Positions 34,844 to 57,807 of a stretch of 64,000 nucleotides of DNA are shown here, in pieces; positions within the stretch are counted from its first letter, which is position 1; every line of letters starts with the position of its first letter. The notes beneath the pieces were generated by a model that did not search any database, was not told the origin of the DNA, and worked only from the letters and a program-made list of their open reading frames with translations. Location: positions 1 to 64,000 of the IMG/VR virus record IMGVR_UViG_2912391263_000005, one strand, 5' to 3'. Position numbers and translations under genes: made by a program. Source of the DNA: a virus.

Positions 34844-36964
34844 GTGGCAAATTTAGAAATTAAATTATCTGCAAATAAGAGACAGCCTTATCTACGTCAC
34901 CGTGTTGTTGGTAGAGTTGGTGATGGGGGGCTCACAACAATCAATGTACAACTTCTTGAGGAAGATGAAATTACACCTTTTGTAATTAATCTAAACGGTA
35001 CTTTGAAATTTGTGGGCGAAGTTTCAAACGGTAACTATACCGAGGGAGAACCAGAAATAATCGATTCGACTAATGGGTTAATTAGTTACACGTTCACTAA
35101 GTCAAATTTCAGCACGAGTCATCAATTCAAACAAGCATATTTTGAATATGTAGATCCTAACGGCAAAAAAGTAACTTTTCAGAACTTCATCATAGACGTG
35201 TTAGAACGAGTGGATATTAATTCGGAGCAAGCGAAATACTATATTTCTTCATTGGAAAAATTACAGAGTGAAATGCAAACCACTTTCAATCAGTTCATTA
35301 GTGATAAACAGGTCCAATACGATCAAATCTACTCGAAATATAACGAATTAGTAAGATTGATAAATGAATCAGATAAGCAAGTAAATGATCGTATTGATCA
35401 AACCAATCAGCAAATCGGCGATCTCGGCAAGCTGAAAAAGATGTACAGTAACAGCATCGACTTTGGGGGCTATGATTATTCGGGGAATCCGAATTTAATG
35501 TCCAAACTAAAATCGAGCGATTTTAACGTTGGTTACCACGGGTCACTAACTTTGGATAACGAAAAGTTACATTTTACTTCTGATGGTACAGGAAGCATTA
35601 TTATGTTTACGCGTATTAATACACCTCAGCTTACTAGTGGGAAAACCTATACTCTGAGTGCGAAAGTTCGATTTGATGAAGGAACTACAGGAGCTATTGA
35701 TAAATTACGTTTGGTGTATCGTACATCACCAGGAGAAAAGATATTATTGGAAGCAAATAGTACAAATATTACAACAGATGATGTAGGGAAAGAAATAACA
35801 ATCAAAGGTACAGCTAACGTTAATTATCAAATCACAAATTTAGATCGATTTTATATGAGTATTAGCTTTGTTGACAGGGATAAAATAAATGGCGGATTTA
35901 AGTTGTACGACATCAAAATCGAAGAAGGCTCAACAGCCACACCGTACCAGCCTAATCTACTTGATGCACCGTATTATTTGAGTAAGGTGGCTTTGGGTGA
36001 GAATCTAATTAAACCAGAATCACAACAACCAGTTACTAATAGTAACTATCTTATTAACACCTATAACATTAAACCAATGGTAAAAGGTAAGAAGTATACC
36101 ATCACACTTGAAGGAACTAAGCCAGCAACACAGGTTTTTAGACCATTTTTCACACGAGCAACAGGAGATGCATGGGAGGTTGGTGACTTACAACCAGTAG
36201 AAGGCTTAACTAATGTGTGGTCTAAAACATTTACAGCAGCAGATGACTCACACCCTACTACCCCACAAGTGCAGATTTATCAAGTACCAAGCACAAGTGT
36301 AGGACAATGTACAATTAAGTGGTTAAAACTAGAGGAAGGCAATACTCGAACCCCGAATATTAGTGAGTATAAATATCGTGGTACTGGTATGCGTGATTCA
36401 AACAATCCAAAAGATTATGTTTGGGATCTAGCACCAGAATATGTCGAAGATAATTTGGCCACAGATATTAAAATTTCTGAAATTACTGGTAAAGCAAACA
36501 ATTATACCGATGGGAAAGTATCGGAGATTAATTCGCAGTTGACTGCTTCAATTAATGAAGTAGACACCACAGCTAAGGATGCTCAAACAAAAGCGAATGC
36601 TAATGCGACTGCTATAGATGAATTAGACAATAAGATCGATGAACGCATTAATGATACAGCTACTACCACATTAACAGTTACAAACGGGAATACCGGATCA
36701 GCAAAGCTTTATCGTGAAGGAAAAACAGTTTCTATATATTTTGTGGCTTTAAACGGAAAACGCAGTGGTGGAAATGATTCAACGATACTAACAATTCCAG
36801 AAGGCTATCGGCCACCAATTAGTTTTGAGCAACTGGTTGGCTCGATAGACCGTTCTACTTTGAACAGTGCTCAGTTATCTATTGGTGCAGATGGAGCCAT
36901 TAAATGGCGAAGAAACTCAAGTTATGGATCGGATTATACCTTTGCAATTACTTACACGATTTAG
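34844..36964 (+). CDS. tail fibre / receptor-binding protein
   Basis: 706 aa. Central coiled coil (TDGKVSEINSQLTASINEVDT...). Position. Confidence 0.6.
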   Translation: MANLEIKLSANKRQPYLRHRVVGRVGDGGLTTINVQLLEEDEITPFVINLNGTLKFVGEVSNGNYTEGEPEIIDSTNGLISYTFTKSNFSTSHQFKQAYFEYVDPNGKKVTFQNFIIDVLERVDINSEQAKYYISSLEKLQSEMQTTFNQFISDKQVQYDQIYSKYNELVRLINESDKQVNDRIDQTNQQIGDLGKLKKMYSNSIDFGGYDYSGNPNLMSKLKSSDFNVGYHGSLTLDNEKLHFTSDGTGSIIMFTRINTPQLTSGKTYTLSAKVRFDEGTTGAIDKLRLVYRTSPGEKILLEANSTNITTDDVGKEITIKGTANVNYQITNLDRFYMSISFVDRDKINGGFKLYDIKIEEGSTATPYQPNLLDAPYYLSKVALGENLIKPESQQPVTNSNYLINTYNIKPMVKGKKYTITLEGTKPATQVFRPFFTRATGDAWEVGDLQPVEGLTNVWSKTFTAADDSHPTTPQVQIYQVPSTSVGQCTIKWLKLEEGNTRTPNISEYKYRGTGMRDSNNPKDYVWDLAPEYVEDNLATDIKISEITGKANNYTDGKVSEINSQLTASINEVDTTAKDAQTKANANATAIDELDNKIDERINDTATTTLTVTNGNTGSAKLYREGKTVSIYFVALNGKRSGGNDSTILTIPEGYRPPISFEQLVGSIDRSTLNSAQLSIGADGAIKWRRNSSYGSDYTFAITYTI

Positions 36965-38043: not shown

Positions 38044-38264
38044 ATAATAAAACGTTCGAAGTACTAAAATGGTTCGCACTGGTAATTATTCCCGCACTAG
38101 CTACTTTCGTGGGGTTAGTTGGTAAAGCGCTCAATTGGCAGTACACAGATATCTGTGTTGTCATCATTACTGGTTTTGGCGCGTTTTTAGGGAGTGTGTT
38201 GGGTGTATCAAATCGAACCTACAAAATGTTCTCGGCTGAAAGCGAAGAAGGAGGAAACAAATGA
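38040..38264 (+). CDS. holin
   Basis: 74 aa, two TM helices, charged C-terminus. Immediately before the endolysin. Confidence 0.65.
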   Translation: MNNKTFEVLKWFALVIIPALATFVGLVGKALNWQYTDICVVIITGFGAFLGSVLGVSNRTYKMFSAESEEGGNK

Positions 38265-47319: not shown

Positions 47320-47644
47320 ACTTGTTGTATCAAAATAAGCCAGTAGAACAACCAAACCAGTAGCTAGTAATGACAATAATACTGGGGAATCGGATCATTA
47401 TGGTGTGATTGATATTTCTCTTCCAGAAGATCTTAAGCCAGATCCTGCAACAATTGGCAACAGTGGCATGATTTTTGATTCGTTAGATGAAGCTATGTCA
47501 TATGGTTGGAAAGAAATTAAGGATGAAGGTAGTAATTGGTATGGCATGAGATTTGGTGATGGTGAAGTTGCCAATAAAGCTGGTATTCCAATTGGGAAAT
47601 GGACAGTTGATTTCCACGAAGCAGGTTCTTTTTTTGTTCTGTAA
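47320..47644 (+). pseudogene. 3-prime remnant of a LysM-protein gene (paralog of 61759..62694)
   Basis: Encodes ...ATIGNSGMIFDSLDEAMSYGWKEIKDEGSNW...KWTVDFHE versus ...AMIGNSGKVFNSEEEAMAYGWKEIKDENSKW...KWSVDFYE. 5-prime part absent. Confidence 0.5.
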
Positions 47645-47790
47645 TTATAGTGGGAGGGTAAAATCATTGATGAAATGTGTTCAGATAAGAGCGCCAGATA
47701 AAAATAGAAGAGACAGTTCACGTCGTTATCACTTTTGGTAACGGCGTTTTGTTTTATTATATAAAATTCTCAGGAAAAGGAGGAATTCTT

Positions 47791-50700
47791 GTGTATGCAA
47801 AAACGAAAATGAATTGGTTGAAAGCACTCGCATTGGTGGCCTTTTCTCAATTCTGTTTCTTGGTGGGAACTGCTCAAGCACATGCAGAAGAAACGACGGC
47901 TACACAACCTACGGTGGAAGCCATTGCCCAAGTCGCTTCTGAAGTGACAGAAGTCCAACCAGCAGAAGCCGGGGTCCCAGCTGGTGAAGCCACTGTTGAA
48001 CAGGCCCCTGTGACAGAAGCGCCAACGGTCAATTCCAAAACGACTCTCGATCAGACGATTGGGGAAACACAACACCCAGGGAATAGTCCTGTTACTTCAC
48101 AACCAGTTGAAGAAACTGCCTCAATTACAATCCCTGCTTCAGAAACGTCCACTCCAGAAGGAGAAAAAGCTGCCGAAGCAACGCCTTCTGTGAAGCCAGA
48201 GTCTTCTGAGAAACAAGCGGAAGAAAAGCAACGAATAGAAGAAACAGTGGAACAAGCAGCGGCTACTGCTGACAAAGAAGGAAAAAATGAGGAAAACGTT
48301 GAAAAAACAATCTCTTCAACCGCAGCTAGTCAAAATCAACCAACGAAATCAAACAAAGAATCTACGGCTAGTATTGAAGATCAAAAGAAAAAAGAGCAGG
48401 ACATTCCAAAAACAGGTACACCTACACTGTTAGTAACAGTACCAACCAATCGTTCGGTTCGTGTTCGCCGTACAACCAATACAGCTGTTTTAGGTGGTCG
48501 AAAAATTAATTGGGGCGAAAATATTGGTGTTACTTCTAGTCCGAATAATCCAAACTTCACTTTAAATTACATGGTTCGTTTTGAGATTAATGGACAAGTG
48601 GCGTTTTGTATTGAGCCTGGTGTCGCAGCCGCAGAAGGACAAGTTTATACAGCTACTGCTTTGGAAAACTATTTGAAAAATTCAAATGTACGGAAAAAAA
48701 CAAGCTTGATCTCTTATTTAGGATATGTCACAAACAAAGACAAATCCGATGAACAATACATTGCGGCACAATTTATGATTTGGGAAGTTTTGGGCACAAA
48801 AATCCCAATTAAAAATATCCGTATTGAATATGATCGTAGAAAAGCAGAAATTCAACGTTTGCTTAATAATTTTGATGTAAGAGCTACCTTTCATAATCAA
48901 ACACATACGGTAAAAAGTGGCGAAACGTTAAAAGTAAAAAGTGGCAATGACTTTTTACAACGTGTAAAAGACATTAAAAAGCCAAAAGGTGTCAATGTAT
49001 CTATTCATGGGAATGAAGCATGGATCACAGTCACAAAAGAAGCACCAGAAAAGGCAAAAATTCACTTCAATCAGATTGAAGCATTAGGTGCGCCATTAGC
49101 GTATCGTCGTCCAGGTGCCCAAACAATTGGTGTATTGAATCCTTTTGAACCTGGTGACTCTGTTGTCAATTTGACCATTTTGAAACAAGGAAACATTCGT
49201 GTTTTTAAAGAAGATGTGGAAACCGATGTGAAAGCACAAGGGGCAGCTTCTTTAGAAAATGCGGTGTATGGCTTGTATCAAGTAGATGGGAAAAAGATCA
49301 AAGAAATCACGTTGAAAAATATTAACGGTAAAGTACAGGCAGAAATTAAAGATCTTGATCCTGGCAAATATGTTTTAAAAGAAATTAAAGCGCCGAAAGG
49401 CTATGTACTTTCTGATGAAACAATTGAAATTGTCGTTGAACCTGGAAAAACTGTCAATGCAACCGCAAAAGATCAAGTGATCAAAGGAACCATTGATTTA
49501 GTGAAAGTTGCTAATAAAGACTTAGTCGATTCAACCAATCCAGATAATAAACCAAAATTAGCTGGTATTGAAATCTCTTTGACGTCAAAAACAACTGGTC
49601 AAGTGGTGAAAACAGTTGTCACAGACAAAGATGGTTACGCTAGCTTTGGTAAAAATACTGTTGTCTTTGATACGTACATTCTTTCTGAAACCAAAGGAAA
49701 AGAAGGGTATAAACTATTTGAACCATTCGAAGTGACAATTTCTGAACAAGGGCAAACCTTCCATTATATTTTAGAAGACAAAGTAATCGAACAACGTCTT
49801 AAAGTGGTGAAAGTGGATCAAGAAACAGGAAAAGTGATTCCACTTGCTAATACAGAATTCAAGATTTTTGATACCTTAGCCAATCGTTATGTCACAATGG
49901 AGATTCCAAATGATACAGAAACGACGGATATCTTTAAAACCAATGAAAAAGGCTTTTTCTTAACTAACGGTACACTTACTTATGGAAAAGATCGTTATCG
50001 TTTGGAAGAAATCAAAGCGCCCGTAAATTACGTTTTGAATCAAAACCCATTGGTGTTCTCGATTACCAATGATACAGAACCAATCAAAGTGATCCATTTT
50101 GCGAACCGTCAAGCACGGAAAAACGTGAAATTGTTCAAGTATGAAGAATGGAACAAGAAGAAAACACCGCTTGCTGGTGTCACCTTTACTCTGTATAACC
50201 AAGCAGGGAAAGCTCTTGGTGAATATATCACCGATCAAAATGGTGAGATTTTAGTGAAAGGTCTAGTTGCCAATAACTATTACTTTATCGAAAATACACC
50301 ATTAGAAAGTTTCCAACCAAATACAGACAAACAAGCATTCACTATTACATTCAAACAAAATGCGCCAGATGATGGCGAAACGTTATTGGTTTCTGTACGT
50401 AACTACTTGATTCCGCCAAAACTAGAAACACAAGCGTCAAATAAAGCCGATGGTGAAAAAGTGGTTGATCCATTAGAAACGATCGTCATTAAAGACAGTG
50501 TTTCTTATACCAACCTGTTTGTCGGCAAAGAATACACCATTTCAGGAGTATTGATGAACAAGGCAACGAATGTGCCAATTTTACAAGATGGCAAAGAAAT
50601 CACAAGTACCTTGGCTTTTATTGCAGACAAAGCCAATGGCACAAAAGACCTTGAATTTGTGGTTAATGCTAGTGTTCTGAAAGGTCAAACGATTGTTGTT

Positions 50701-52060
50701 TTTGAAAAACTTTTCCGTGATGGCATTGAAGTTGCAGCACATGCGGATATCAACGATGAAGCCCAAAGTGTGAAAGTGAATAATCCAACCGTTCATACCA
50801 CGGCTGTCTTTGAAGACGGATTGACAGTCGCAGACCCAACAGGATTGTTTACCTTAAACGATACCGTTGAAATTACCGAGATTCTTCCAGGAAAAGCATA
50901 CTTGGTCAAAGGGATCTTAATGGATAAAGCAACCGGTGAACCCTTGCTTGTGCATGGAAATACGGTAGAAACGAGTGTTGGCTTTATTGCCAAAGCAGAA
51001 AATGAAACGGTGATCGTACCATTTACCTTTGATTTGACAGGTTTAAATGGTCGTGAAATCGTCGTGTTTGAAAGTCTTTTTAGAAATGATGAAGAACTAG
51101 CAAACCATAAAGACATCAACGACAAAGGGAACGAACCCAAGTGTACGTACAACGGCTACACATAAACCCACTGGCTTGAAAGAGGTTAATCCATTAACGA
51201 AAGTCACCATTACAGACGCTGTGAAATACCACGATTTGGTCGTTGGAAAAACATACACAGTCAACGGTGTTCTAATGGACAAAGTAACGGAAAAACCAGT
51301 GCTAGTAGATGGAAAAGAAGTCACAAGTACCTTAACGTTTGTGGCAGAAACAACGGATGGTACAGTCAATCTAGACTTTATTCTAGACGCACGTGCGTTG
51401 CGAGGCAAAGAAGTCGTGGTCTTTGAAGATCTGTTTAGAGAAGGCGTATTATTGGCTTCTCACGCAGATATTACCGACAATGACCAAACCATCAAAATCA
51501 GTAATCCAACCATTACGACGAAAGCGACGAATAAAAATGGCGGAAAAGAGATCTTGGCCTTGCCAAATCAAACTGTGCTTGAATGGGTCAAAGTAGACGG
51601 TCTTGCGATTGGTCAAATCTATCGCTTAATTGTTCAAGGCTACTTAACACCAGACGGCACACCATTTGAAGGCACTCATGCGGAAAAAGTCTTTGCGGCC
51701 GATAAAGAAATGATGGAATTCTTATTTGAATTCTTAGTGGACGGTCGCAATCTTGCAGGAAAAGGCTTGAGTTTTGCGGAATGGCTGCAAGCGAAAACGG
51801 AAGATGAGAAAGAAACGTTTGAAGAAGTGGCGAAACACAATGTAGATCTAACAAACAAAGATCAAACGGTTCAAATTGTGGAAGCGCCAAAACCACCGCA
51901 ACCAGTGAAACCAGAACAACGGGTTAAAGCAGCTACTGTTGTACCAATGTTGCCAAAAACAGGCGAACAAACAAGTAGTATACTTATGGTTCTTGGATTA
52001 GTAGTATTAGTCATTGTTTTAGGTATAACACTTTATAAAGTACGTAAAGCCAAAGATTAG
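47791..52060 (+). pseudogene. LPXTG (LPKTG) surface protein with Cna-B/SpaA-type repeat domains, disrupted by a +1/-1 frameshift near 51125-51140
   Basis: GTG start with RBS AAAGGAGG. Signal peptide. Repeated modules (...VFE.LFR....A.H.DIND..Q.V). ORF 47749..51165 stops 11 nt before ORF 51176..52060, which continues the same repeat in another frame and ends LPKTGEQ plus a TM and KRKAKD tail. Confidence 0.65.
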
Positions 52061-52158
52061 GCATGAGGAACAAGCGGTTAGGATTTTTAACCGCTTGTTT
52101 GATTGTAATGTAGAAATATTTAGAATTTATTTTGGTTTTTAAGAGGAGGAAAAACTTT

Positions 52159-52524
52159 ATGGCAGAAAAAGCATTGCGTATGAAGAAAGAGTTTTTAGGT
52201 CAAGTATTTTTATTGGGTTCACGGGAACCTAATCCACCAAAGGAAATTAATGGTGTGTCTGGGCGATATGTTCAATTACAAGCAGAATGTTCGCGAGAAG
52301 AACAGCCTGCTTTTTTTGTTTATCTCACAGCTGAAGAGGATAAAAGATTACGATTACCAGAAAAAGAGGTGCGTATTTCATTTGAAGAAGCTTATTTTGT
52401 TTTTCGTAAAGAACGAGTGAATAGTCGTGAAACAAATGATATGGGACAAACAGAGCGTCGAACAACTGGCTATCAAGATGTTGGTGTCTTTTTAACTGGC
52501 GTAAAAATTGAGGAGGTTTTGTAA
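52159..52524 (+). CDS. hypothetical protein
   Basis: RBS AAGAGGAGG before ATG 52159. Confidence 0.45.
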   Translation: MAEKALRMKKEFLGQVFLLGSREPNPPKEINGVSGRYVQLQAECSREEQPAFFVYLTAEEDKRLRLPEKEVRISFEEAYFVFRKERVNSRETNDMGQTERRTTGYQDVGVFLTGVKIEEVL

Positions 52525-52525
52525 G

Positions 52526-52978
52526 ATGGGATTAAAATTTCCAAATAATTATGATATTACAGAAGCATTAGATGAAACTTGTTTAGGAGCCGTACGCTTT
52601 GGCGCATTAGAAGAGTCTGATCGTGTATTTGATAATGAAACAGGCGATTATACGGGAGAAATTCGATCACAGCGAGCACAATTAGTTTTTGGAAATCCAG
52701 ATGAACCAAAGATTGCACGACGAGTTAAATTTCCAGCAGATGTAGATTTGACTGGTTTTAAACGACGTGATCCTGTGAAATTAATTGATCCAGAGTATCA
52801 TGTGGTATATATTCCAGCACAAGATGGCAATCGTGAATATTCAGATTTAGTGATTTATGCGAAAGGATTAGAGAAAGTAGAAGCTCCAACAAATAATCCT
52901 AATCTGAAACAATCACAAGAAAAAGGTTTAGATCAAAAACAACCAAGTGTTGATTCTAAGGAAAAAGAGAAAAAATAA
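52526..52978 (+). CDS. hypothetical protein
   Basis: RBS GAGGAGG before ATG 52526. Confidence 0.45.
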   Translation: MGLKFPNNYDITEALDETCLGAVRFGALEESDRVFDNETGDYTGEIRSQRAQLVFGNPDEPKIARRVKFPADVDLTGFKRRDPVKLIDPEYHVVYIPAQDGNREYSDLVIYAKGLEKVEAPTNNPNLKQSQEKGLDQKQPSVDSKEKEKK

Positions 52979-52991
52979 GGTTTTTTTGAAA

Positions 52992-53020
52992 GAATAGGAA
53001 GGAGTCTTCCTATTCTTTTT
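52992..53020 (+). terminator. intrinsic terminator (11-bp perfect stem) used as group II intron insertion site
   Basis: agaataggaag-gagt-cttcctattct followed by TTTTT. Intron GTGCG starts 3 nt later. Confidence 0.75.
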
Positions 53021-53023
53021 ATC

Positions 53024-54895
53024 GTGCGCCAGGCATGGCAACTAACTAGGTGGTGAAAGTCCACTGCGAGGGGACACATCGACCAATCGCTAGAGAAACG
53101 CAAGGTGGCATCCGTGAGGATGTAGCTGAAGGAAGCGTGTATCAAACTCTTGGCTCGACGAACAGAAATCTGATACTAAGGCTCGAATAAGTGGATGAGG
53201 TTCCTATACAAACCAAAGTCCAAAAGATGTGCGTAAACTTATCGGGTAAATCAGGCGAGTAAAAGACGAAAGTTAGTTGTCTTACCCTGGGAGATCTCAC
53301 GGACGATTAAGGAGTCCCCTAATAAGAAAATCGGTCGAAAAAGGTTTATCGTGAGAAGTCAGCCGATGTCATAGTAGTGGAAATTTTCTTCCATGAAGGA
53401 CTGAACAATTTATAGTGTTTCTACACCATGAATGCACGAAAGATATATTTCTGAATGTGTTAATGATGAAAGTATGAGCGTATCTCAAAGGATAGTCAAA
53501 AGTGAAGTGTCTTTCGTTACATGAAAGGAAAAGGGAGAAGCGAGTATGGAACTTTTAGAAAAAATTTTGAGTAATCAAAACATGAACCAAGCTTACAAAC
53601 GTGTTTATCGTAATAAAGGAGCAAGCGGTGTGGATGGAATTTCAGTTGAGGAATTAAAGGCGTATCTTAGGGAACATAAAGAAGAACTTCGTTCTCAAAT
53701 CCGCCAACGTAAATACAATCCACAACCAACGTTACGAGTTGAAATTCCAAAAGGAAATGGCAAAACACGTCAATTAGGTATCCCCACAGTAGTGGATAGG
53801 GTCATCCAACAGGCGATTAGCCAAATCCTCACGACCGTTTTTGAAAAGCAATTTAGTACGTATAGTTATGGTTTTCGACCGAATCGTAGTTGTGAAATGG
53901 CGATTATCCAAACCCTAGACTTTATGAATAATGGCTATGATTGGCTAGTGGATATTGACTTAGAGCGGTTCTTTGATACTGTTCACCATGACAAGCTTAT
54001 GCGAATTGTCTCACACACGATAGAAGACGGGGATGTGATTTCTCTCATCCGCAAGTATCTAGTAAGTGGCGTCATGAAAAGTGGAAAATATGAAGACACA
54101 CCTATCGGTACCCCGCAAGGCGGTAATTTAAGTCCGCTATTGAGCAACATTATGCTAAATGAACTTGATAAAGAACTAGAATCAAGAGGACTACATTTTG
54201 TCCGCTATGCAGATGATAGTATCATTTTTGTCAAAAGCGAGAAGGCAGCACAGCGAGTGCTACAGTCTGTAACGACTTTTATCGAAAAGAAGTTAGGGCT
54301 GATCGTCAATGCAGAGAAAAGTAAAATAGGTCGTCCAAATAGCACAAAATTTTTAGGTTTCGGTTTTTACTTTGATAGTCATACAAAGAAATATCAGCCA
54401 ACGCCTCATAAGGACTTCGTTCAGAAATTTCAGCGCAAATTACGCCAATGGACTAAGAGGAACAGAAGTATTTCTCTTGATGAACGAATCATGAAACTTA
54501 AACAAGTCATTTATGGTTGGGTAAACTACTTTCGCAAAGCAAAAATGAAAGGAAAACTCAGAGAAATAGACGCAAAACTTCGGTCAAGAATCCGAGTCAT
54601 TATCTGGAAACAGTGGAAGAACGATAGAAAGAGAATTCGTTCCTTGGTTCAGTTAGGGATACCAGAAGAAGAAGCCAAAGGCTTAACGTATTGCAGAAAG
54701 AGCTATCGATTTATTGGATTATCAAAGGTAGTTCACAGAGCTCTATCAAATAAGCGACTAAAGCAAAGAGGCATTCCTTTTTCCGTAGATTATTATTTAA
54801 AAGTGCATACTGCAATATAAATTGAACCGCCGTATGCTGAACGGCTTGTGCGGTGGTGTGAGAGGGGTGCGAACCTATGCGTTCGGGCCTCTACT
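53024..54895 (+). mobile_element. group II intron, class C-like (3-prime boundary approximate)
   Basis: 5-prime GTGCGCC. RT/maturase ORF in domain IV. Domain-V-like hairpin AACCGCCGTATGC...GTGCGGTGG (CGC triad) at about 54825-54857. DVI-like hairpin follows. Inserted right after a terminator. Confidence 0.65.
53546..54820 (+). CDS. group II intron reverse transcriptase/maturase (no endonuclease domain)
   Basis: RT blocks (...GIPTVVDRVIQQA..., FRPNRSCEMA, YADD motif RYADDSIIF) and X/maturase domain. 424 aa, no C-terminal HNH. Confidence 0.85.
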   Translation: MELLEKILSNQNMNQAYKRVYRNKGASGVDGISVEELKAYLREHKEELRSQIRQRKYNPQPTLRVEIPKGNGKTRQLGIPTVVDRVIQQAISQILTTVFEKQFSTYSYGFRPNRSCEMAIIQTLDFMNNGYDWLVDIDLERFFDTVHHDKLMRIVSHTIEDGDVISLIRKYLVSGVMKSGKYEDTPIGTPQGGNLSPLLSNIMLNELDKELESRGLHFVRYADDSIIFVKSEKAAQRVLQSVTTFIEKKLGLIVNAEKSKIGRPNSTKFLGFGFYFDSHTKKYQPTPHKDFVQKFQRKLRQWTKRNRSISLDERIMKLKQVIYGWVNYFRKAKMKGKLREIDAKLRSRIRVIIWKQWKNDRKRIRSLVQLGIPEEEAKGLTYCRKSYRFIGLSKVVHRALSNKRLKQRGIPFSVDYYLKVHTAI

Positions 54896-54922
54896 CGATT
54901 AAGGTAGAAGGAAGGGGAGATT

Positions 54923-55150
54923 TTGAATTCAGATAAAACCAATCAAACACTTCGAGAGATTGTGGCTTGTTGTCAAAATATCCAACAATTGATTGAGTAT
55001 TTTGGAGACAATCCGACGATTTTTGCACAAACAAATGAGTATATGTGTGCGGTTATTGGGCAGTGTATGTTTTTAGGTGGATTATACTTTGAAGTGCAAA
55101 GAGTTAGTAATAGCTCTTTACATTTCAAAGTATTTTTTATGTGGAGGTAG
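54923..55150 (+). CDS. hypothetical protein (TTG start)
   Basis: RBS GGAAGGGGAG. Confidence 0.35.
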   Translation: MNSDKTNQTLREIVACCQNIQQLIEYFGDNPTIFAQTNEYMCAVIGQCMFLGGLYFEVQRVSNSSLHFKVFFMWR

Positions 55151-55153
55151 CCA

Positions 55154-55525
55154 ATGAGACTTTTTCAATGGGTTATTGAAACGGTAGCTGTTCAACGAAA
55201 TGGCGAAAATAAGATGCATGTGTTTCATATAACAACATTCGATAAATCTAAAAAGAATGCAATGGATATTGCCCGATTAAAGACGAAGCGATTGTTGAAG
55301 CGGAAAAACATTCCTTATTTACGAGTAACGATTTGTTGGATTCAGTTTATGAAAGTAGTGAGACGTACAAAGTACGAAGAATACAAACAGCTAGTCCGAT
55401 TGAATAAATCGAAAAAAGTCATTGCTCGTCTCCTGAATCTTCCTTTTTGGGAAGTGAATAAATTAGAACGACACTATCAAAAAGAACGACGTAGAAAATA
55501 TATACGTCAAGCCAAATTAAATTAG
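55154..55525 (+). CDS. hypothetical basic protein
   Basis: 123-aa ORF. Confidence 0.4.
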   Translation: MRLFQWVIETVAVQRNGENKMHVFHITTFDKSKKNAMDIARLKTKRLLKRKNIPYLRVTICWIQFMKVVRRTKYEEYKQLVRLNKSKKVIARLLNLPFWEVNKLERHYQKERRRKYIRQAKLN

Positions 55526-55634
55526 CATTCTTTTTGAGTCGATCATTTTGTTCAAAATAAAAGATACTTACTTCATTTATTCATAACATATAAATATAAG
55601 TTGCTAGGTCACAATCCAATAATATATATATAAT

Positions 55635-56103
55635 CCTAGCGGGAGTTAGCCTGATAAGCTACAGATAAGTACAGGTCTGTAGTGCTTCCGAATCAAAAAG
55701 GCACAGCGACACCTGGCATATGTTTAGTGCATATGTCGTCCGCTGCAGCGTCGGGAATCCAGGTCATGGAAACTCGGGAATCTGTGGGGAATGCTTACAC
55801 GGTCAACGCGCGGTAATGAGGGCGTAGTAACGGTCAGGGTAGGTGGATCGGCCAAATTCTTGTTTGGGGAAATGGAACCAGCAAGAAGATGGAGTTATTT
55901 CTACAGAATTGAGGGATCTTTTCTGAGGAAATAATCGGACAACGCGGGGCTAGTACGGTCTTTTCTAAGAATTTCTCTTAAAAAACGCGACGTCGAATGA
56001 TACGCTACCAGTGTGTCCATTTCCCCGGCTAAACAAGACTAAAAGTCAATTATTTAATAAATAGAATAAAAGGAAGGACTCTATTTTATTCTATTTACTT
56101 TTT
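55635..56103 (+). ncRNA. candidate structured ncRNA, copy B of the paralogous ORF-free element
   Basis: Homologous to 45973-46398. Terminal 12-bp hairpin aatagaataaaa/ttttattctatt (56060-56095) plus T-run, where copy A has a 6-bp version at the equivalent place. Confidence 0.45.
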
Positions 56104-56234
56104 AGGAAAGAGTGGATTATTGTTTTGAAACAAAAAAAGAACCAGTTTTTACTGATTCTTTTTAGAATAAGTAACCATTATAACAAAAGTTATAATGAAT
56201 AATACAAAATGTTTCAGTATCAGGAGGGAAGTTA

Positions 56235-56852
56235 ATGGAAGAACTTGAGCAAAAGAAAGTAATCCAACAATTAACAAAAGAAGCAGAGAATCGAACAAAT
56301 GAAATTTCGGACTTTATTGAAGAATGGGATAGAAGAACGAACAAAGCGTTAGAAATGGATAAAGAAGGAACGTTAACCATTCCTCATTTAAATGAGTTAT
56401 TTGAATTTGTTTCTTCTAAACTTGAAAAATATAAACGTGTAGAGAACCGAAGAGAACAATGCTATTCAAGGTATCGTGATCAATTAACCGAAGAACAGTT
56501 CGCAGTCTGGGAAAGATTCCGTTTTGCATTAAATAGTGTCCATATATGTCGTAAGAATTTTAATTCTTTTGTGGAACGTTTTAGTGATTACAAACCGTCT
56601 AATGTAGATAGTATTAGGAATCAAGTGCGAGAGATTCTAAAAAAGAAAGGCTATATCGTAGATAGTTATTTTGAAAGTGACTATGTGACATGGGTAGGTG
56701 TTTATGCTCGTCCAGAAAATAAACCAACCTACTTAGATCCTGCGACTTCAGAAGATGCTTATTTACAGAACAAATACCGAGTCGATGACTTTAAACAAGA
56801 TTTTGCAGAATGGTTTGAATGGGAAATTGCAAATGACATTGTTCAACCATAA
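56235..56852 (+). CDS. hypothetical protein, C-terminal domain paralogous to 47043..47315
   Basis: TATAAT at about 56193. RBS CAGGAGGG. Confidence 0.55.
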   Translation: MEELEQKKVIQQLTKEAENRTNEISDFIEEWDRRTNKALEMDKEGTLTIPHLNELFEFVSSKLEKYKRVENRREQCYSRYRDQLTEEQFAVWERFRFALNSVHICRKNFNSFVERFSDYKPSNVDSIRNQVREILKKKGYIVDSYFESDYVTWVGVYARPENKPTYLDPATSEDAYLQNKYRVDDFKQDFAEWFEWEIANDIVQP

Positions 56853-56965
56853 AAGAATGGACTGTACGAATCAAGAGGAAAACAAAAGCTTTCTTTTTGA
56901 TTGATACAATCAATTGTTGTATCAAAAATGAACCTAATTAGAAAATCCCAACTGGGCTGTTTTTG

Positions 56966-57175
56966 TTAGAAAGCAATAGTAGTTATACTTTCTATTACTT
57001 CTAACAACAGTTCGAATATTGCTTCAAGAAGAACTCTAAAAAAGAAATAACTAATAGAGTCGCCGAAAAATAGGAGTAGAAAAAAAGCTGTTCCTATTTT
57101 ATGTTTCCAAGCAAATTCGATTATCATGATTATTCGTATCATGATGTTTTGGATCACTTCAATCATTTTGTTCAC
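56966..57175 (-). CDS. small membrane protein
   Basis: 69 aa, two hydrophobic helices. Confidence 0.35.
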   Translation of the reverse strand: MNKMIEVIQNIMIRIIMIIEFAWKHKIGTAFFLLLFFGDSISYFFFRVLLEAIFELLLEVIESITTIAF

Positions 57176-57328
57176 CTCCTCGTCAATTCAAACTTTGTTT
57201 GAATATTTTGTGAAAGTTGATTAATGAAAGGTGACAAAATGAACGAAGTAATCACTGTATTATTTTAATGTCAGGACAGAAAAAAATGGTCGAAAAAACT
57301 TTGTTAATCGGTCTAAAAGAAGGGAGTA

Positions 57329-57571
57329 ATGGTGTATTTGAGTAATCGAAGTGTTTTATTTAGTGAACAGTATTTGATTGCATACATGGAAGCCACGAAT
57401 CGAAAAGAGCTCTCTTTTGATGACTGTTTATTTTTATTCAAGGAGGAAGAAGAGAGAAGGTTTTTTTATAGTCAAATGAAAGATTTTTCTTTTCTAAAAC
57501 GAATTGATCGAAAAATCGGAAAGAAAAATAAGATTTATTTTGTTTTAAAGAAAAATAAAAGAAGTGAATGA
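57329..57571 (+). CDS. hypothetical protein
   Basis: 80 aa. Confidence 0.4.
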   Translation: MVYLSNRSVLFSEQYLIAYMEATNRKELSFDDCLFLFKEEEERRFFYSQMKDFSFLKRIDRKIGKKNKIYFVLKKNKRSE

Positions 57572-57807
57572 ATGTTTTGAATTATTTTATCTATCTAAAG
57601 CAAAGGGGATTAGAAACATACTACTTTGGATAGTCAGATGAATCTGAAAAATATACATGTGCTATAGGAAGAAAAGTTGCTATGATGATTAGAATGAACA
57701 TTCATTTTTTGTTGACAAAAAGTGAGTGGCATTTGTAAAATAATTTTGTAAAGAAAATAAAAAACGGAAAGGAGAATTGCTGGTTATTGTTTATTCTTTA
57801 ACAATAG

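What the first reader, a model, noticed from the sequence alone, without database searches (positions are those of the whole stretch)
52992..54895. Class-C-like group II intron inserted 3 nt after an intrinsic terminator
A perfect 11-bp stem-loop plus T5 terminator (52992-53020) is followed immediately by GTGCGCC, a group II intron 5-prime end.

The intron encodes a 424-aa RT/maturase lacking an endonuclease domain.

A domain-V-like hairpin with a CGC triad lies at about 54825-54857.

Targeting of terminator stem-loops with an endonuclease-less RT is the established hallmark of bacterial class C introns.

The exact 3-prime splice site (about 54894) could not be fixed by eye.
Basis: partly seen in the sequence, partly recalled or inferred. 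Interest (0 to 1): 0.5.

Follow-up and report, generated by a model that had tools for sequence, protein, structure and literature searches.

The report
Ordinary class C group II intron
This is a typical bacterial class C (IIC) group II intron, a self-splicing retroelement, sitting just after a terminator hairpin in an Enterococcus chromosome; it is real and now mapped to the base, but it belongs to the commonest kind of bacterial group II intron.

Summary
A 1876-nt group II intron occupies window 53024-54899 on the + strand.

- **Boundaries.** Two intron-less alleles read ...CTTCCTATTCTTTTTATC|TAAGGTAGAAGG. Conservation among 10 relatives ends at the same base, and the Rfam DV/DVI model ends there too.
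- **Protein.** The 424-aa protein has RVT_1 and GIIM domains and no endonuclease. Its best solved relatives are all IIC maturases (E. rectale 7UIM, E 4e-152).
- **Ribozyme.** DV (CGC triad) and DVI (bulged A 54893) are supported by compensatory changes. EBS1 (53205-53208) and EBS3 (A53249) covary with the flanking exon bases across relatives.
- **Target.** All 11 relatives with upstream DNA, each in a different genome site, also follow a hairpin plus T-run.

The window matches Enterococcus chromosome CP012465.1 exactly over the 13,275 bases compared. The protein is already named "group II intron reverse transcriptase/maturase" in NCBI.

This copy looks fixed rather than active. It is always at the same site and pairs at only 3 of 4 IBS1 positions. 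Seven of 9 ORF polymorphisms are non-synonymous, and a sister copy has lost YADD and a DV base.

Interest is low.

The parts
52526..52978 (+). Upstream 150-aa hypothetical gene (5' exon gene); no Pfam domain
   Evidence: ORF list. The called gene is identical in many Enterococcus contigs. No Pfam hit.
52988..53020 (+). Intrinsic-terminator-like hairpin: 14 pairs including a terminal G-U, loop GAGU at 53002-53005, T-run 53016-53020. This is the structured target motif.
   Evidence: Fold of -17.6 kcal/mol, z -4.5. The same hairpin is present in the intron-less alleles L011 and L012.
53020..53023 (+). IBS1 (TATC), the last 4 nt of the 5' exon
   Evidence: Pairs with EBS1 at 3 of 4 positions; -1 C opposite U53205 is a mismatch.
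53024..54899 (+). Complete group II intron, 1876 nt, 5' GUGCG ... 3' CGAU
   Evidence: Empty-site alleles L011/L012 join 53023 directly to 54900. Conservation among relatives starts at GTGCG and ends at CTACTCGAT. The Rfam RF00029 match ends at 54899.
53108..53280 (+). Domain I core (Rfam group-II-D1D4-3)
   Evidence: 132.8 bits against a gathering score of 32, E 3.7e-27, full-length model match.
53205..53208 (+). EBS1 (UAUA) in a terminal loop of domain I (hairpin GGUU-CCUAUACA-AACC)
   Evidence: These alignment columns covary with exon positions -1 to -4. In 9 of 12 introns all four positions pair. Position -3 pairs in 12/12, using A-U, U-A and G-C pair types. The position (intron nt 182-185) matches EBS1 A184-G187 of the E. 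rectale IIC structure.
53249..53249 (+). EBS3 (A in GUAAAU), which pairs with IBS3 T54900
   Evidence: 10 of 12 relatives pair. L030 has G here and C as the first 3'-exon base, a compensatory change. This is analogous to A231-dT36 in the E. rectale structure.
53328..53401 (+). Domains II-III and base of IV (Rfam group-II-D1D4-1)
   Evidence: 49.4 bits against a gathering score of 35.
53546..54820 (+). Intron-encoded protein in domain IV: 424 aa with RT, X/thumb (GIIM) and a C-terminal region aligned to the end of the E. rectale maturase (its DNA-binding domain by analogy, not tested directly); YADD intact; no endonuclease domain
   Evidence: Pfam. It aligns end to end with the 427-aa E. rectale IIC maturase 7UIM at 53% identity. 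dN/dS is 0.05-0.065 against the Enterococcus relatives L030 and L020.
54826..54857 (+). Domain V (32 nt), catalytic triad CGC at 54828-54830, 2-nt bulge UG
   Evidence: RF00029 match. RNAalifold on 14 sequences gives 13 pairs, 3 of them with compensatory changes.
54859..54897 (+). Domain VI with bulged branch-point A at 54893 (position -7)
   Evidence: RNAalifold consensus with 17 pairs, 5 of them with compensatory changes; the A is unpaired in all 14 sequences.
54900..55150 (+). 3' exon: IBS3 T54900, a Shine-Dalgarno-like GGAAGGGGAG, and a TTG start at 54923 for a 75-aa ORF
   Evidence: Sequence, ORF list, and continuity with the empty-site alleles.

Best explanation
Window 53024-54899 is a full-length bacterial class C (IIC) group II intron carried on an Enterococcus chromosome.

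Mechanism, inferred from characterised IIC introns and not tested here:
1. Occasional read-through of the upstream terminator transcribes the intron.
2. The 424-aa RT/maturase is translated from domain IV and binds the RNA.
3. The ribozyme (DV CGC triad, DVI bulged A54893) then excises the intron as a lariat.
4. The resulting ribonucleoprotein recognises a DNA stem-loop followed by a short spacer. It pairs EBS1 (53205-53208) with 4 exon bases and EBS3 (A53249) with the first downstream base, and reverse-splices in.
5. Because there is no endonuclease domain, cDNA synthesis must be primed by a nascent strand at a replication fork.

What is shown here is the anatomy, the exact boundaries, the target motif, and the EBS/IBS covariation among relatives.

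This particular copy looks like an old, fixed insertion inherited with its genomic island, and it seems to be drifting rather than actively moving.
For: Ribozyme:
- RF02001 scores 132.8 bits and RF01998 49.4 bits, both above gathering.
- The DV/DVI model scores 35.8 bits, E 8e-5, ending at 54899.
- DV/DVI covariation is seen in 8 of 30 pairs.

Protein:
- RVT_1 and GIIM are present and HNH is absent.
- The top four PDB matches are all IIC RTs; the 7UIM/7UIN structures are those of a IIC RNP bound to a DNA stem-loop.

Boundaries:
- Empty sites L011 and L012 fix them.

Target:
- The hairpin folds at -17.6 kcal/mol.
- All 11 relatives at unrelated sites follow a hairpin plus T-run, with z from -2.5 to -6.7.

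Exon recognition:
- EBS1 and EBS3 covary with the exons.

Long-term function of the lineage:
- dN/dS is 0.05-0.065 against L030 and L020.

This copy is fixed and drifting:
- The exact protein appears only in the same gene neighbourhood in every one of the 24 contigs read.
- Seven of 9 ORF SNPs among same-site copies are non-synonymous.
- The window copy carries T97, W302 and S386 where all seven relatives have P, L and G; E. rectale also has P and L, but R at 386.
- Sister copy L018 has YADD changed to HADD and a 1-nt deletion in the DV triad region.

Literature on the class: PMC4424553, PMC1702495, PMC7161350, PMC7306698.
Against: - RF00029 (DV/DVI) falls below Rfam's gathering score, 35.8 against 40.
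- The consensus terminator scan did not list the hairpin.
- EBS1-IBS1 forms only 3 of 4 pairs here, with a U-C mismatch at -1. A B. halodurans IIC copy with a 3-bp IBS1 and a mispaired stem did not ligate exons in vitro (PMC1702495), so splicing of this copy may be poor.
- No RNA or mobility data exist for this copy.
- No second insertion site of this exact intron was seen, so present-day activity is not shown.
Confidence: 0.93

Rival explanations
1. It is a dead relic. The sequence derives from a class C intron, but this copy can no longer splice or move and persists only because it sits harmlessly after a terminator.
For: - It is at the same site in every contig read.
- There is a U-C mismatch at IBS1 -1.
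- Seven of 9 within-site SNPs are non-synonymous, while between lineages dN/dS is about 0.05.
- There are three derived replacements at positions invariant in 7 relatives: P97T, L302W and G386S.
- Sister copy L018 has HADD and a DV deletion.
Against: - The ORF is uninterrupted and YADD is intact.
- The 5' GUGCG, EBS1, EBS3, DV triad, DV bulge, DVI branch A and 3' AU are all present.
- Apart from L018's DV deletion and L001's replaced DV-DVI segment, the same-site copies compared show no ribozyme polymorphism.
- None of the three replacements touches a known catalytic residue.
Confidence: 0.35
2. It is a free-standing chromosomal reverse transcriptase (retron-like, group II intron-like or defence-associated) that lies downstream of a terminator by coincidence and has no intron RNA.
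For: Older PDB depositions of IIC RT domains carry the name 'Retron-type reverse transcriptase'. RTs without an endonuclease domain are common in defence systems.
Against: - Ribozyme domains flank the ORF on both sides, with Rfam hits above gathering.
- DV/DVI is supported by covariation.
- Empty alleles lack the entire 1876-nt unit precisely.
- A GIIM maturase domain is present.
- Retron, AbiK and G2L4 RTs score only 1e-5 to 1e-13.
Confidence: 0.01
3. It is a group II intron of another class (IIA or IIB; for example bacterial class B, D, E or F) that happens to lie near a hairpin.
For: Classes D, E and F also lack the endonuclease domain (PMC4424553). The DV/DVI score is sub-threshold.
Against: - The protein is far closer to IIC maturases (E 1e-110 to 1e-152) than to IIA LtrA (2e-43) or the IIB T.el maturase (1e-39).
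- 12 of 12 family members sit after a hairpin plus T-run, which is class C behaviour (PMC4424553, PMC7306698).
- Only 4 exon bases covary, and no column tracks positions further upstream.
Confidence: 0.02

Closest known systems
E.r.I1, the Eubacterium rectale group IIC intron and its maturase (MarathonRT; PDB 7UIM/7UIN, 5HHL)
   Same: - The maturase aligns end to end (417 aa, 53% identity, E 4e-152).
- EBS1 is a 4-nt loop at intron nt 182-185, against 184-187 in E.r.
- EBS3 is a single A in a conserved GUAAAU motif that I take to be the domain Id coordination loop by analogy with E.r. A231 (nt 226, against 231 in E.r.).
- The target is a roughly 12-bp DNA stem-loop, then a spacer, IBS1 and IBS3.
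   Different: - The host is Enterococcus rather than a Lachnospiraceae species.
- The protein differs at 47% of residues.
- This copy has a mismatch at IBS1 -1.
- No biochemical or structural data exist for it.
B.h.I1 (Bacillus halodurans) and GsI-IIC (Geobacillus stearothermophilus), class C introns that insert after intrinsic terminators
   Same: - Insertion is in the sense orientation a few nt downstream of a Rho-independent terminator hairpin.
- The protein lacks an endonuclease domain.
- Recognition uses IBS1 and IBS3 only, with the stem-loop in the place where IBS2 would be (PMC1702495).
- GsI-IIC RT 6AR1 matches at E 9e-110.
   Different: - B.h.I1 and GsI-IIC are present in several to many copies per genome.
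- This intron was seen at a single site only.
Close relatives found here in Enterococcus sp. AZ194 (L030, 90% aa), E. thailandicus (L020, 88%) and Bacillaceae/Salinicoccus genomes (72-80%), and Bacillus thuringiensis plasmid introns (74% nt)
   Same: - They share the ribozyme, with near-identical domain I core, DV and DVI ends.
- The ORF length is the same (424 aa).
- They follow the same hairpin plus T-run target rule.
   Different: - Each sits at a different genomic site.
- Each has its own EBS1 sequence matched to its own IBS1.

Membership tests
Bacterial class C (IIC) group II intron | The intron-encoded protein belongs to the class C clade of group II RT/maturases | tested here: met
   The four best PDB matches are all IIC RTs: 7UIM 4e-152, 5HHJ 6e-121, 5HHL 3e-119 and GsI-IIC 6AR1 9e-110. 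IIA LtrA scores 2e-43 and IIB 1e-39. Identity to 7UIM is 53% over 417 aa. This rests on similarity ranking; no full phylogeny was built.
Bacterial class C (IIC) group II intron | The protein has RT and X/maturase domains and lacks the endonuclease (HNH) domain | tested here: met
   RVT_1 covers residues 67-273 and GIIM 292-363, with no other Pfam domain at E<=0.01. The protein ends 5 residues after the end of its alignment to the 427-aa E.r. maturase.
Bacterial class C (IIC) group II intron | Group II ribozyme: domains I-VI, 5' GUGYG, DV catalytic hairpin, DVI bulged A, 3' AY | tested here: met
   RF02001 scores 132.8 bits and RF01998 49.4 bits, both above gathering. RF00029 scores 35.8 bits, below its gathering score of 40, but the DV/DVI fold has 8 pairs with compensatory changes across 14 sequences. 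The 5' end is GUGCG and the 3' end is ...CGAU.
Bacterial class C (IIC) group II intron | Exon recognition by a short EBS1-IBS1 pairing plus a single EBS3-IBS3 pair | tested here: met
   Columns 185-188 of the domain I alignment covary with exon positions -1 to -4, and all 4 pair in 9 of 12 introns. A53249 pairs with +1 in 10 of 12, with one compensatory G-C. In the window itself only 3 of 4 IBS1 positions pair.
Bacterial class C (IIC) group II intron | No EBS2-IBS2 pairing | tested here: inconclusive
   No alignment column tracked exon position -5 in an informative way, because that position is T in all 12 sequences. Positions further upstream are T-run and hairpin. Absence of a pairing cannot be proved this way.
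Bacterial class C (IIC) group II intron | Inserted in the sense orientation a few nt downstream of an intrinsic-terminator stem-loop (or an attC site) | tested here: met
   In the window the hairpin spans 52988-53019 and the intron starts at 53024. All 11 relatives with upstream DNA have a hairpin plus T-run ending 4-7 nt before GTGYG. The flanking genes are on the same strand.
Bacterial class C (IIC) group II intron | Self-splicing (hydrolytic alone, lariat with the protein) and retromobility into stem-loop DNA | not testable with these tools
   This needs RT-PCR, in vitro splicing and mobility assays.
Rho-independent (intrinsic) terminator | G/C-containing hairpin immediately followed by a U-run, downstream of a stop codon on the coding strand | tested here: met
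   The stop codon is at 52976-52978, the hairpin folds at -17.6 kcal/mol, and T5 lies at 53016-53020. The consensus scan did not report it. Termination activity itself cannot be tested here.

The most novel reading that the evidence does not exclude
The intron may be retained at this one site because it has acquired a host-level role in the island. It could act as a splicing-dependent gate or insulator between the 150-aa gene and the downstream genes, whose ribosome-binding site and TTG start lie only 11-23 nt into the 3' exon. On that reading the relaxed selection on the RT would reflect loss of mobility while the RNA function is kept. The evidence compatible with this is thin: among the same-site copies compared, the ribozyme differs only in L018's DV deletion and L001's replaced DV-DVI segment, while the ORF collects non-synonymous changes.
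Probability: 0.04. Interest if true: 0.45.

Novelty: new member of a known kind. Interest (0 to 1): 0.12.

Why it matters
It matters little beyond correct annotation. Class C introns make up about half of the bacterial group II introns mined in one survey (437 of 863; PMC7306698), and their preference for terminators is textbook.

What this check adds:
- Base-exact boundaries and the EBS1/EBS3 assignments for an Enterococcus IIC intron that public annotation marks only as an RT gene.
- A family of 12 relatives whose exon-binding sites covary with their insertion sites.
- Signs that this copy is a fixed insertion drifting neutrally, which makes it a small natural example of how such elements decay.

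The protein is a 53%-identical relative of MarathonRT, so it could be of minor interest as an RT enzyme candidate. However, this allele carries three derived replacements at otherwise conserved positions.

Tried and rejected
- The phage collection gave no match to 52000-56000, so this stretch is not seen in known phages.
- In the plasmid collection only the intron part matched; the flanks did not, so the island is not a known plasmid.
- The simple terminator scan did not list the upstream hairpin, so I relied on folding with shuffles instead.
- At gathering threshold Rfam did not report DV/DVI. It appeared only in the E-value search and was then checked by covariation.
- A scan for a domain I column pairing with exon -1 at 11 or more of 12 sequences found none. 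Inspection showed that -1 pairs in 10 of 12, and that the window is one of the two exceptions.
- My first automatic scan for EBS3 missed it for the same threshold reason. I found it by analogy with E.r. A231 and then tested it.
- A literature search for a described E. faecium class C intron found nothing relevant.
- The group II intron reported in a vanB2 transposon (PMC4143159) encodes a 610-aa LtrA-like protein and is a different element.
- Robart et al. 2007 (PMC1871835) is not held in the library.
- I considered whether the break in homology with the empty-site loci was caused by the intron. I rejected this because the break lies about 183 nt downstream of the intron, not at its edge.

Full report
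**Observation**

- The stop codon of a 150-aa gene lies at 52976-52978.
- A hairpin spans 52988-53019, with a core stem of 52992-53001 paired to 53006-53015 and the loop GAGU. It overlaps a T5 run at 53016-53020.
- As RNA it folds at -17.6 kcal/mol, z = -4.5, and none of 200 dinucleotide shuffles folds as well.
- The consensus terminator scan did not report it. This is probably because its maximal stem absorbs three of the T's, but that is my inference.
- Three bases later, at 53024, the sequence reads GTGCGCC.
- ORF 53546-54820 encodes 424 aa with RVT_1 (E 5e-45) and GIIM (E 7e-17) and nothing else.

**Is it a group II intron?**

At gathering thresholds Rfam finds group-II-D1D4-3 at 53108-53280 (132.8 bits, E 3.7e-27) and group-II-D1D4-1 at 53328-53401 (49.4 bits). 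These are the only intron matches in the 64-kb window.

The DV/DVI model (RF00029) matches 54825-54899 at 35.8 bits, below its gathering score of 40, with E 8e-5 in the local search. Because that score is sub-threshold, I tested the fold by comparison.
- I aligned the last ~80 nt of this intron with 13 relatives.
- RNAalifold returned a 13-pair DV (54826-54857) and a 17-pair DVI (54859-54897).
- Eight of the 30 pairs keep pairing through changes on both sides.
- One A (54893) is unpaired in every sequence, 7 nt from the 3' end.
- DV carries CGC (54828-54830) where most group II introns have AGC. From my own knowledge, this is also the case in the Oceanobacillus IIC crystal structure.

**Exact boundaries**

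The exact 150-aa upstream protein is encoded on many Enterococcus contigs. Two of them (L011, L012) lack the intron and read ...CTTCCTATTCTTTTTATC|TAAGGTAGAAGGAAGGGGAG. That joins window 53023 directly to 54900.

The junction cannot be shifted by even one base, because C53023 and T54900 differ from the adjacent intron bases. Two other results agree:
- Relatives from other genomes are conserved from GTGYG to CTACTCGAT and are unrelated outside those points.
- The Rfam model ends at 54899.

The intron is therefore 53024-54899, 1876 nt.

**Class**

The protein's best solved relatives are all IIC enzymes:

| PDB entry | Source | E-value |
|---|---|---|
| 7UIM | E. rectale intron maturase | 4e-152 |
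| 5HHJ, 5HHL | IIC RT domains | about 1e-120 |
| 6AR1 | GsI-IIC RT | 9e-110 |
| 5G2X | IIA LtrA | 2e-43 |
| 6ME0 | IIB maturase | 1e-39 |

The match to 7UIM covers 417 aligned residues at 53% identity. Retron, AbiK and G2L4 RTs score 1e-5 to 1e-13. 7UIM and 7UIN are the structures of a IIC RNP bound to a DNA stem-loop (PMC10190682).

**Target rule**

A scan of one genome per species with the protein returned 20 loci. Eleven have a full intron with upstream DNA. All eleven sit 4-7 nt after a hairpin followed by a T-run, with upstream folds of -12 to -20 kcal/mol and z from -2.5 to -6.7, each in a different genomic context. This is the behaviour described for class C (PMC4424553, PMC7306698, PMC1702495).

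**Exon recognition**

In an alignment of domain I from 12 introns, four adjacent loop positions (window 53205-53208, UAUA) covary with the last four exon bases.
- Position -3 pairs in 12 of 12, using three pair types.
- Position -2 pairs in 11 of 12.
- All four positions pair in 9 of 12.

This places EBS1 at intron nt 182-185, which matches A184-G187 in the E. rectale structure.

A53249, within a conserved GUAAAU, pairs with the first 3'-exon base in 10 of 12. The one intron with G at that position (L030) has C as its first exon base. This is EBS3, analogous to A231 in E. rectale.

In the window itself IBS1 is TATC. Position -1 C faces U53205, so only 3 of 4 positions pair.

**Host and history of this copy**

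Window 47546-60820 is identical base for base to CP012465.1:2235307-2248581, a 2.97-Mb Enterococcus chromosome. NCBI names the protein 'MULTISPECIES: group II intron reverse transcriptase/maturase [Enterococcus]', and the cluster holds E. faecium, E. faecalis and E. avium entries.

In all 24 contigs read for the exact protein, the neighbourhood is the same: an LPXTG/TQ adhesin, 121-aa and 150-aa genes, the intron, then 75-aa and 123-aa genes. No second insertion site was seen.

Selection on the ORF differs between the lineage and this copy.
- Between lineages the ORF is under strong purifying selection, with dN/dS of 0.05-0.065 against L030 and L020.
- Among the same-site copies, 7 of 9 ORF SNPs are non-synonymous.
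- At a dN/dS of about 0.06, only about one SNP in six would be expected to be non-synonymous. This is my arithmetic, and the sample is small.
- The window allele has T97, W302 and S386 where all seven relatives have P, L and G. E. rectale also has P and L at the first two positions, but has R at 386.
- A sister copy, L018, has YADD changed to HADD and a 1-nt deletion in the DV triad region.
- Another, L001, has a different DV-DVI segment that still pairs.

Taken together, this is an old, fixed insertion inherited with the island and evolving close to neutrally. The window copy is structurally intact, but its present activity is unproven.

**Mechanism**

The anatomy, boundaries, target motif and EBS/IBS pairings are shown here. 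The following steps are inferred from characterised IIC introns (PMC7161350, PMC1702495, PMC10190682, PMC4424553):
- transcription by terminator read-through;
- protein-assisted lariat splicing, or hydrolysis without the protein;
- cDNA priming from a replication-fork strand, because there is no endonuclease domain.

**Verdict**

The element is a new but unremarkable member of the commonest class of bacterial group II introns, and its protein is already auto-annotated in public databases. Interest is low.

Noticed in passing
L018 (AP026718.1 copy), equivalent to window 54206 and 54830: A sister copy of the same intron at the same site has Y221H, which turns the RT active-site motif YADD into HADD. 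It also has a 1-nt deletion in the DV CGC-triad region and D144G, so that copy is probably dead.
   Followed up: partly
L001 (PTUG01000027.1 copy), equivalent to window 54836-54887: One same-site copy has a different upper DV helix and DVI stem: about 24 substitutions plus 1 insertion within 52 nt, with pairing preserved. The rest of the intron is identical. This suggests gene conversion from another IIC intron.
   Followed up: partly
window 54900-55083 versus L011 4497-4680: The 3' exon is about 97% identical to the intron-less loci for only about 183 nt, after which homology ends. The intron-less loci continue with a 118-aa gene, an FtsK-like gene and a Rep_trans gene (a conjugative module). 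The window instead has a 75-aa ORF that looks like a truncated version of the 118-aa gene, followed by unrelated genes.
   Followed up: partly
window 47749-51165 and 51176-52060: The LPXTG surface protein gene (SpaA and TQ ester-bond domains) is split into two ORFs of 1138 and 294 aa here and in CP012465.1. In most other carriers it is a single 1422-1427-aa gene, so this strain probably has a frameshift.
   Followed up: partly
window 1-39300, 39476-39549, 40552-41976: The left part of the window looks like a prophage tail/lysis region (BppU_N baseplate protein at 34844-36964, Amidase_2 at 38261-39286). It is followed by a tRNA gene (39476-39549) and IS3-type transposase pieces (rve at 40552-41388; an HTH transposase on the minus strand at 41473-41976).
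   Followed up: no
L040 3001-3168 (E. faecium plasmid pTT39_p1, NZ_CP023424.1) and about 60 other Enterococcus plasmids: Plasmids carry 170-460-nt fragments of the 5' part of a related intron at 81-90% identity. On many E. faecium plasmids the fragment starts right at the end of an ISEfa7 (IS1182-like) transposase gene. E. raffinosus megaplasmids carry fragments of about 260 nt.
   Followed up: partly
window 53546-54820, codons 97, 302, 386: The window allele of the intron protein has T97, W302 and S386 where all seven relatives compared have P, L and G. E. rectale also has P and L, but R at 386. These are derived changes of unknown effect.
   Followed up: partly
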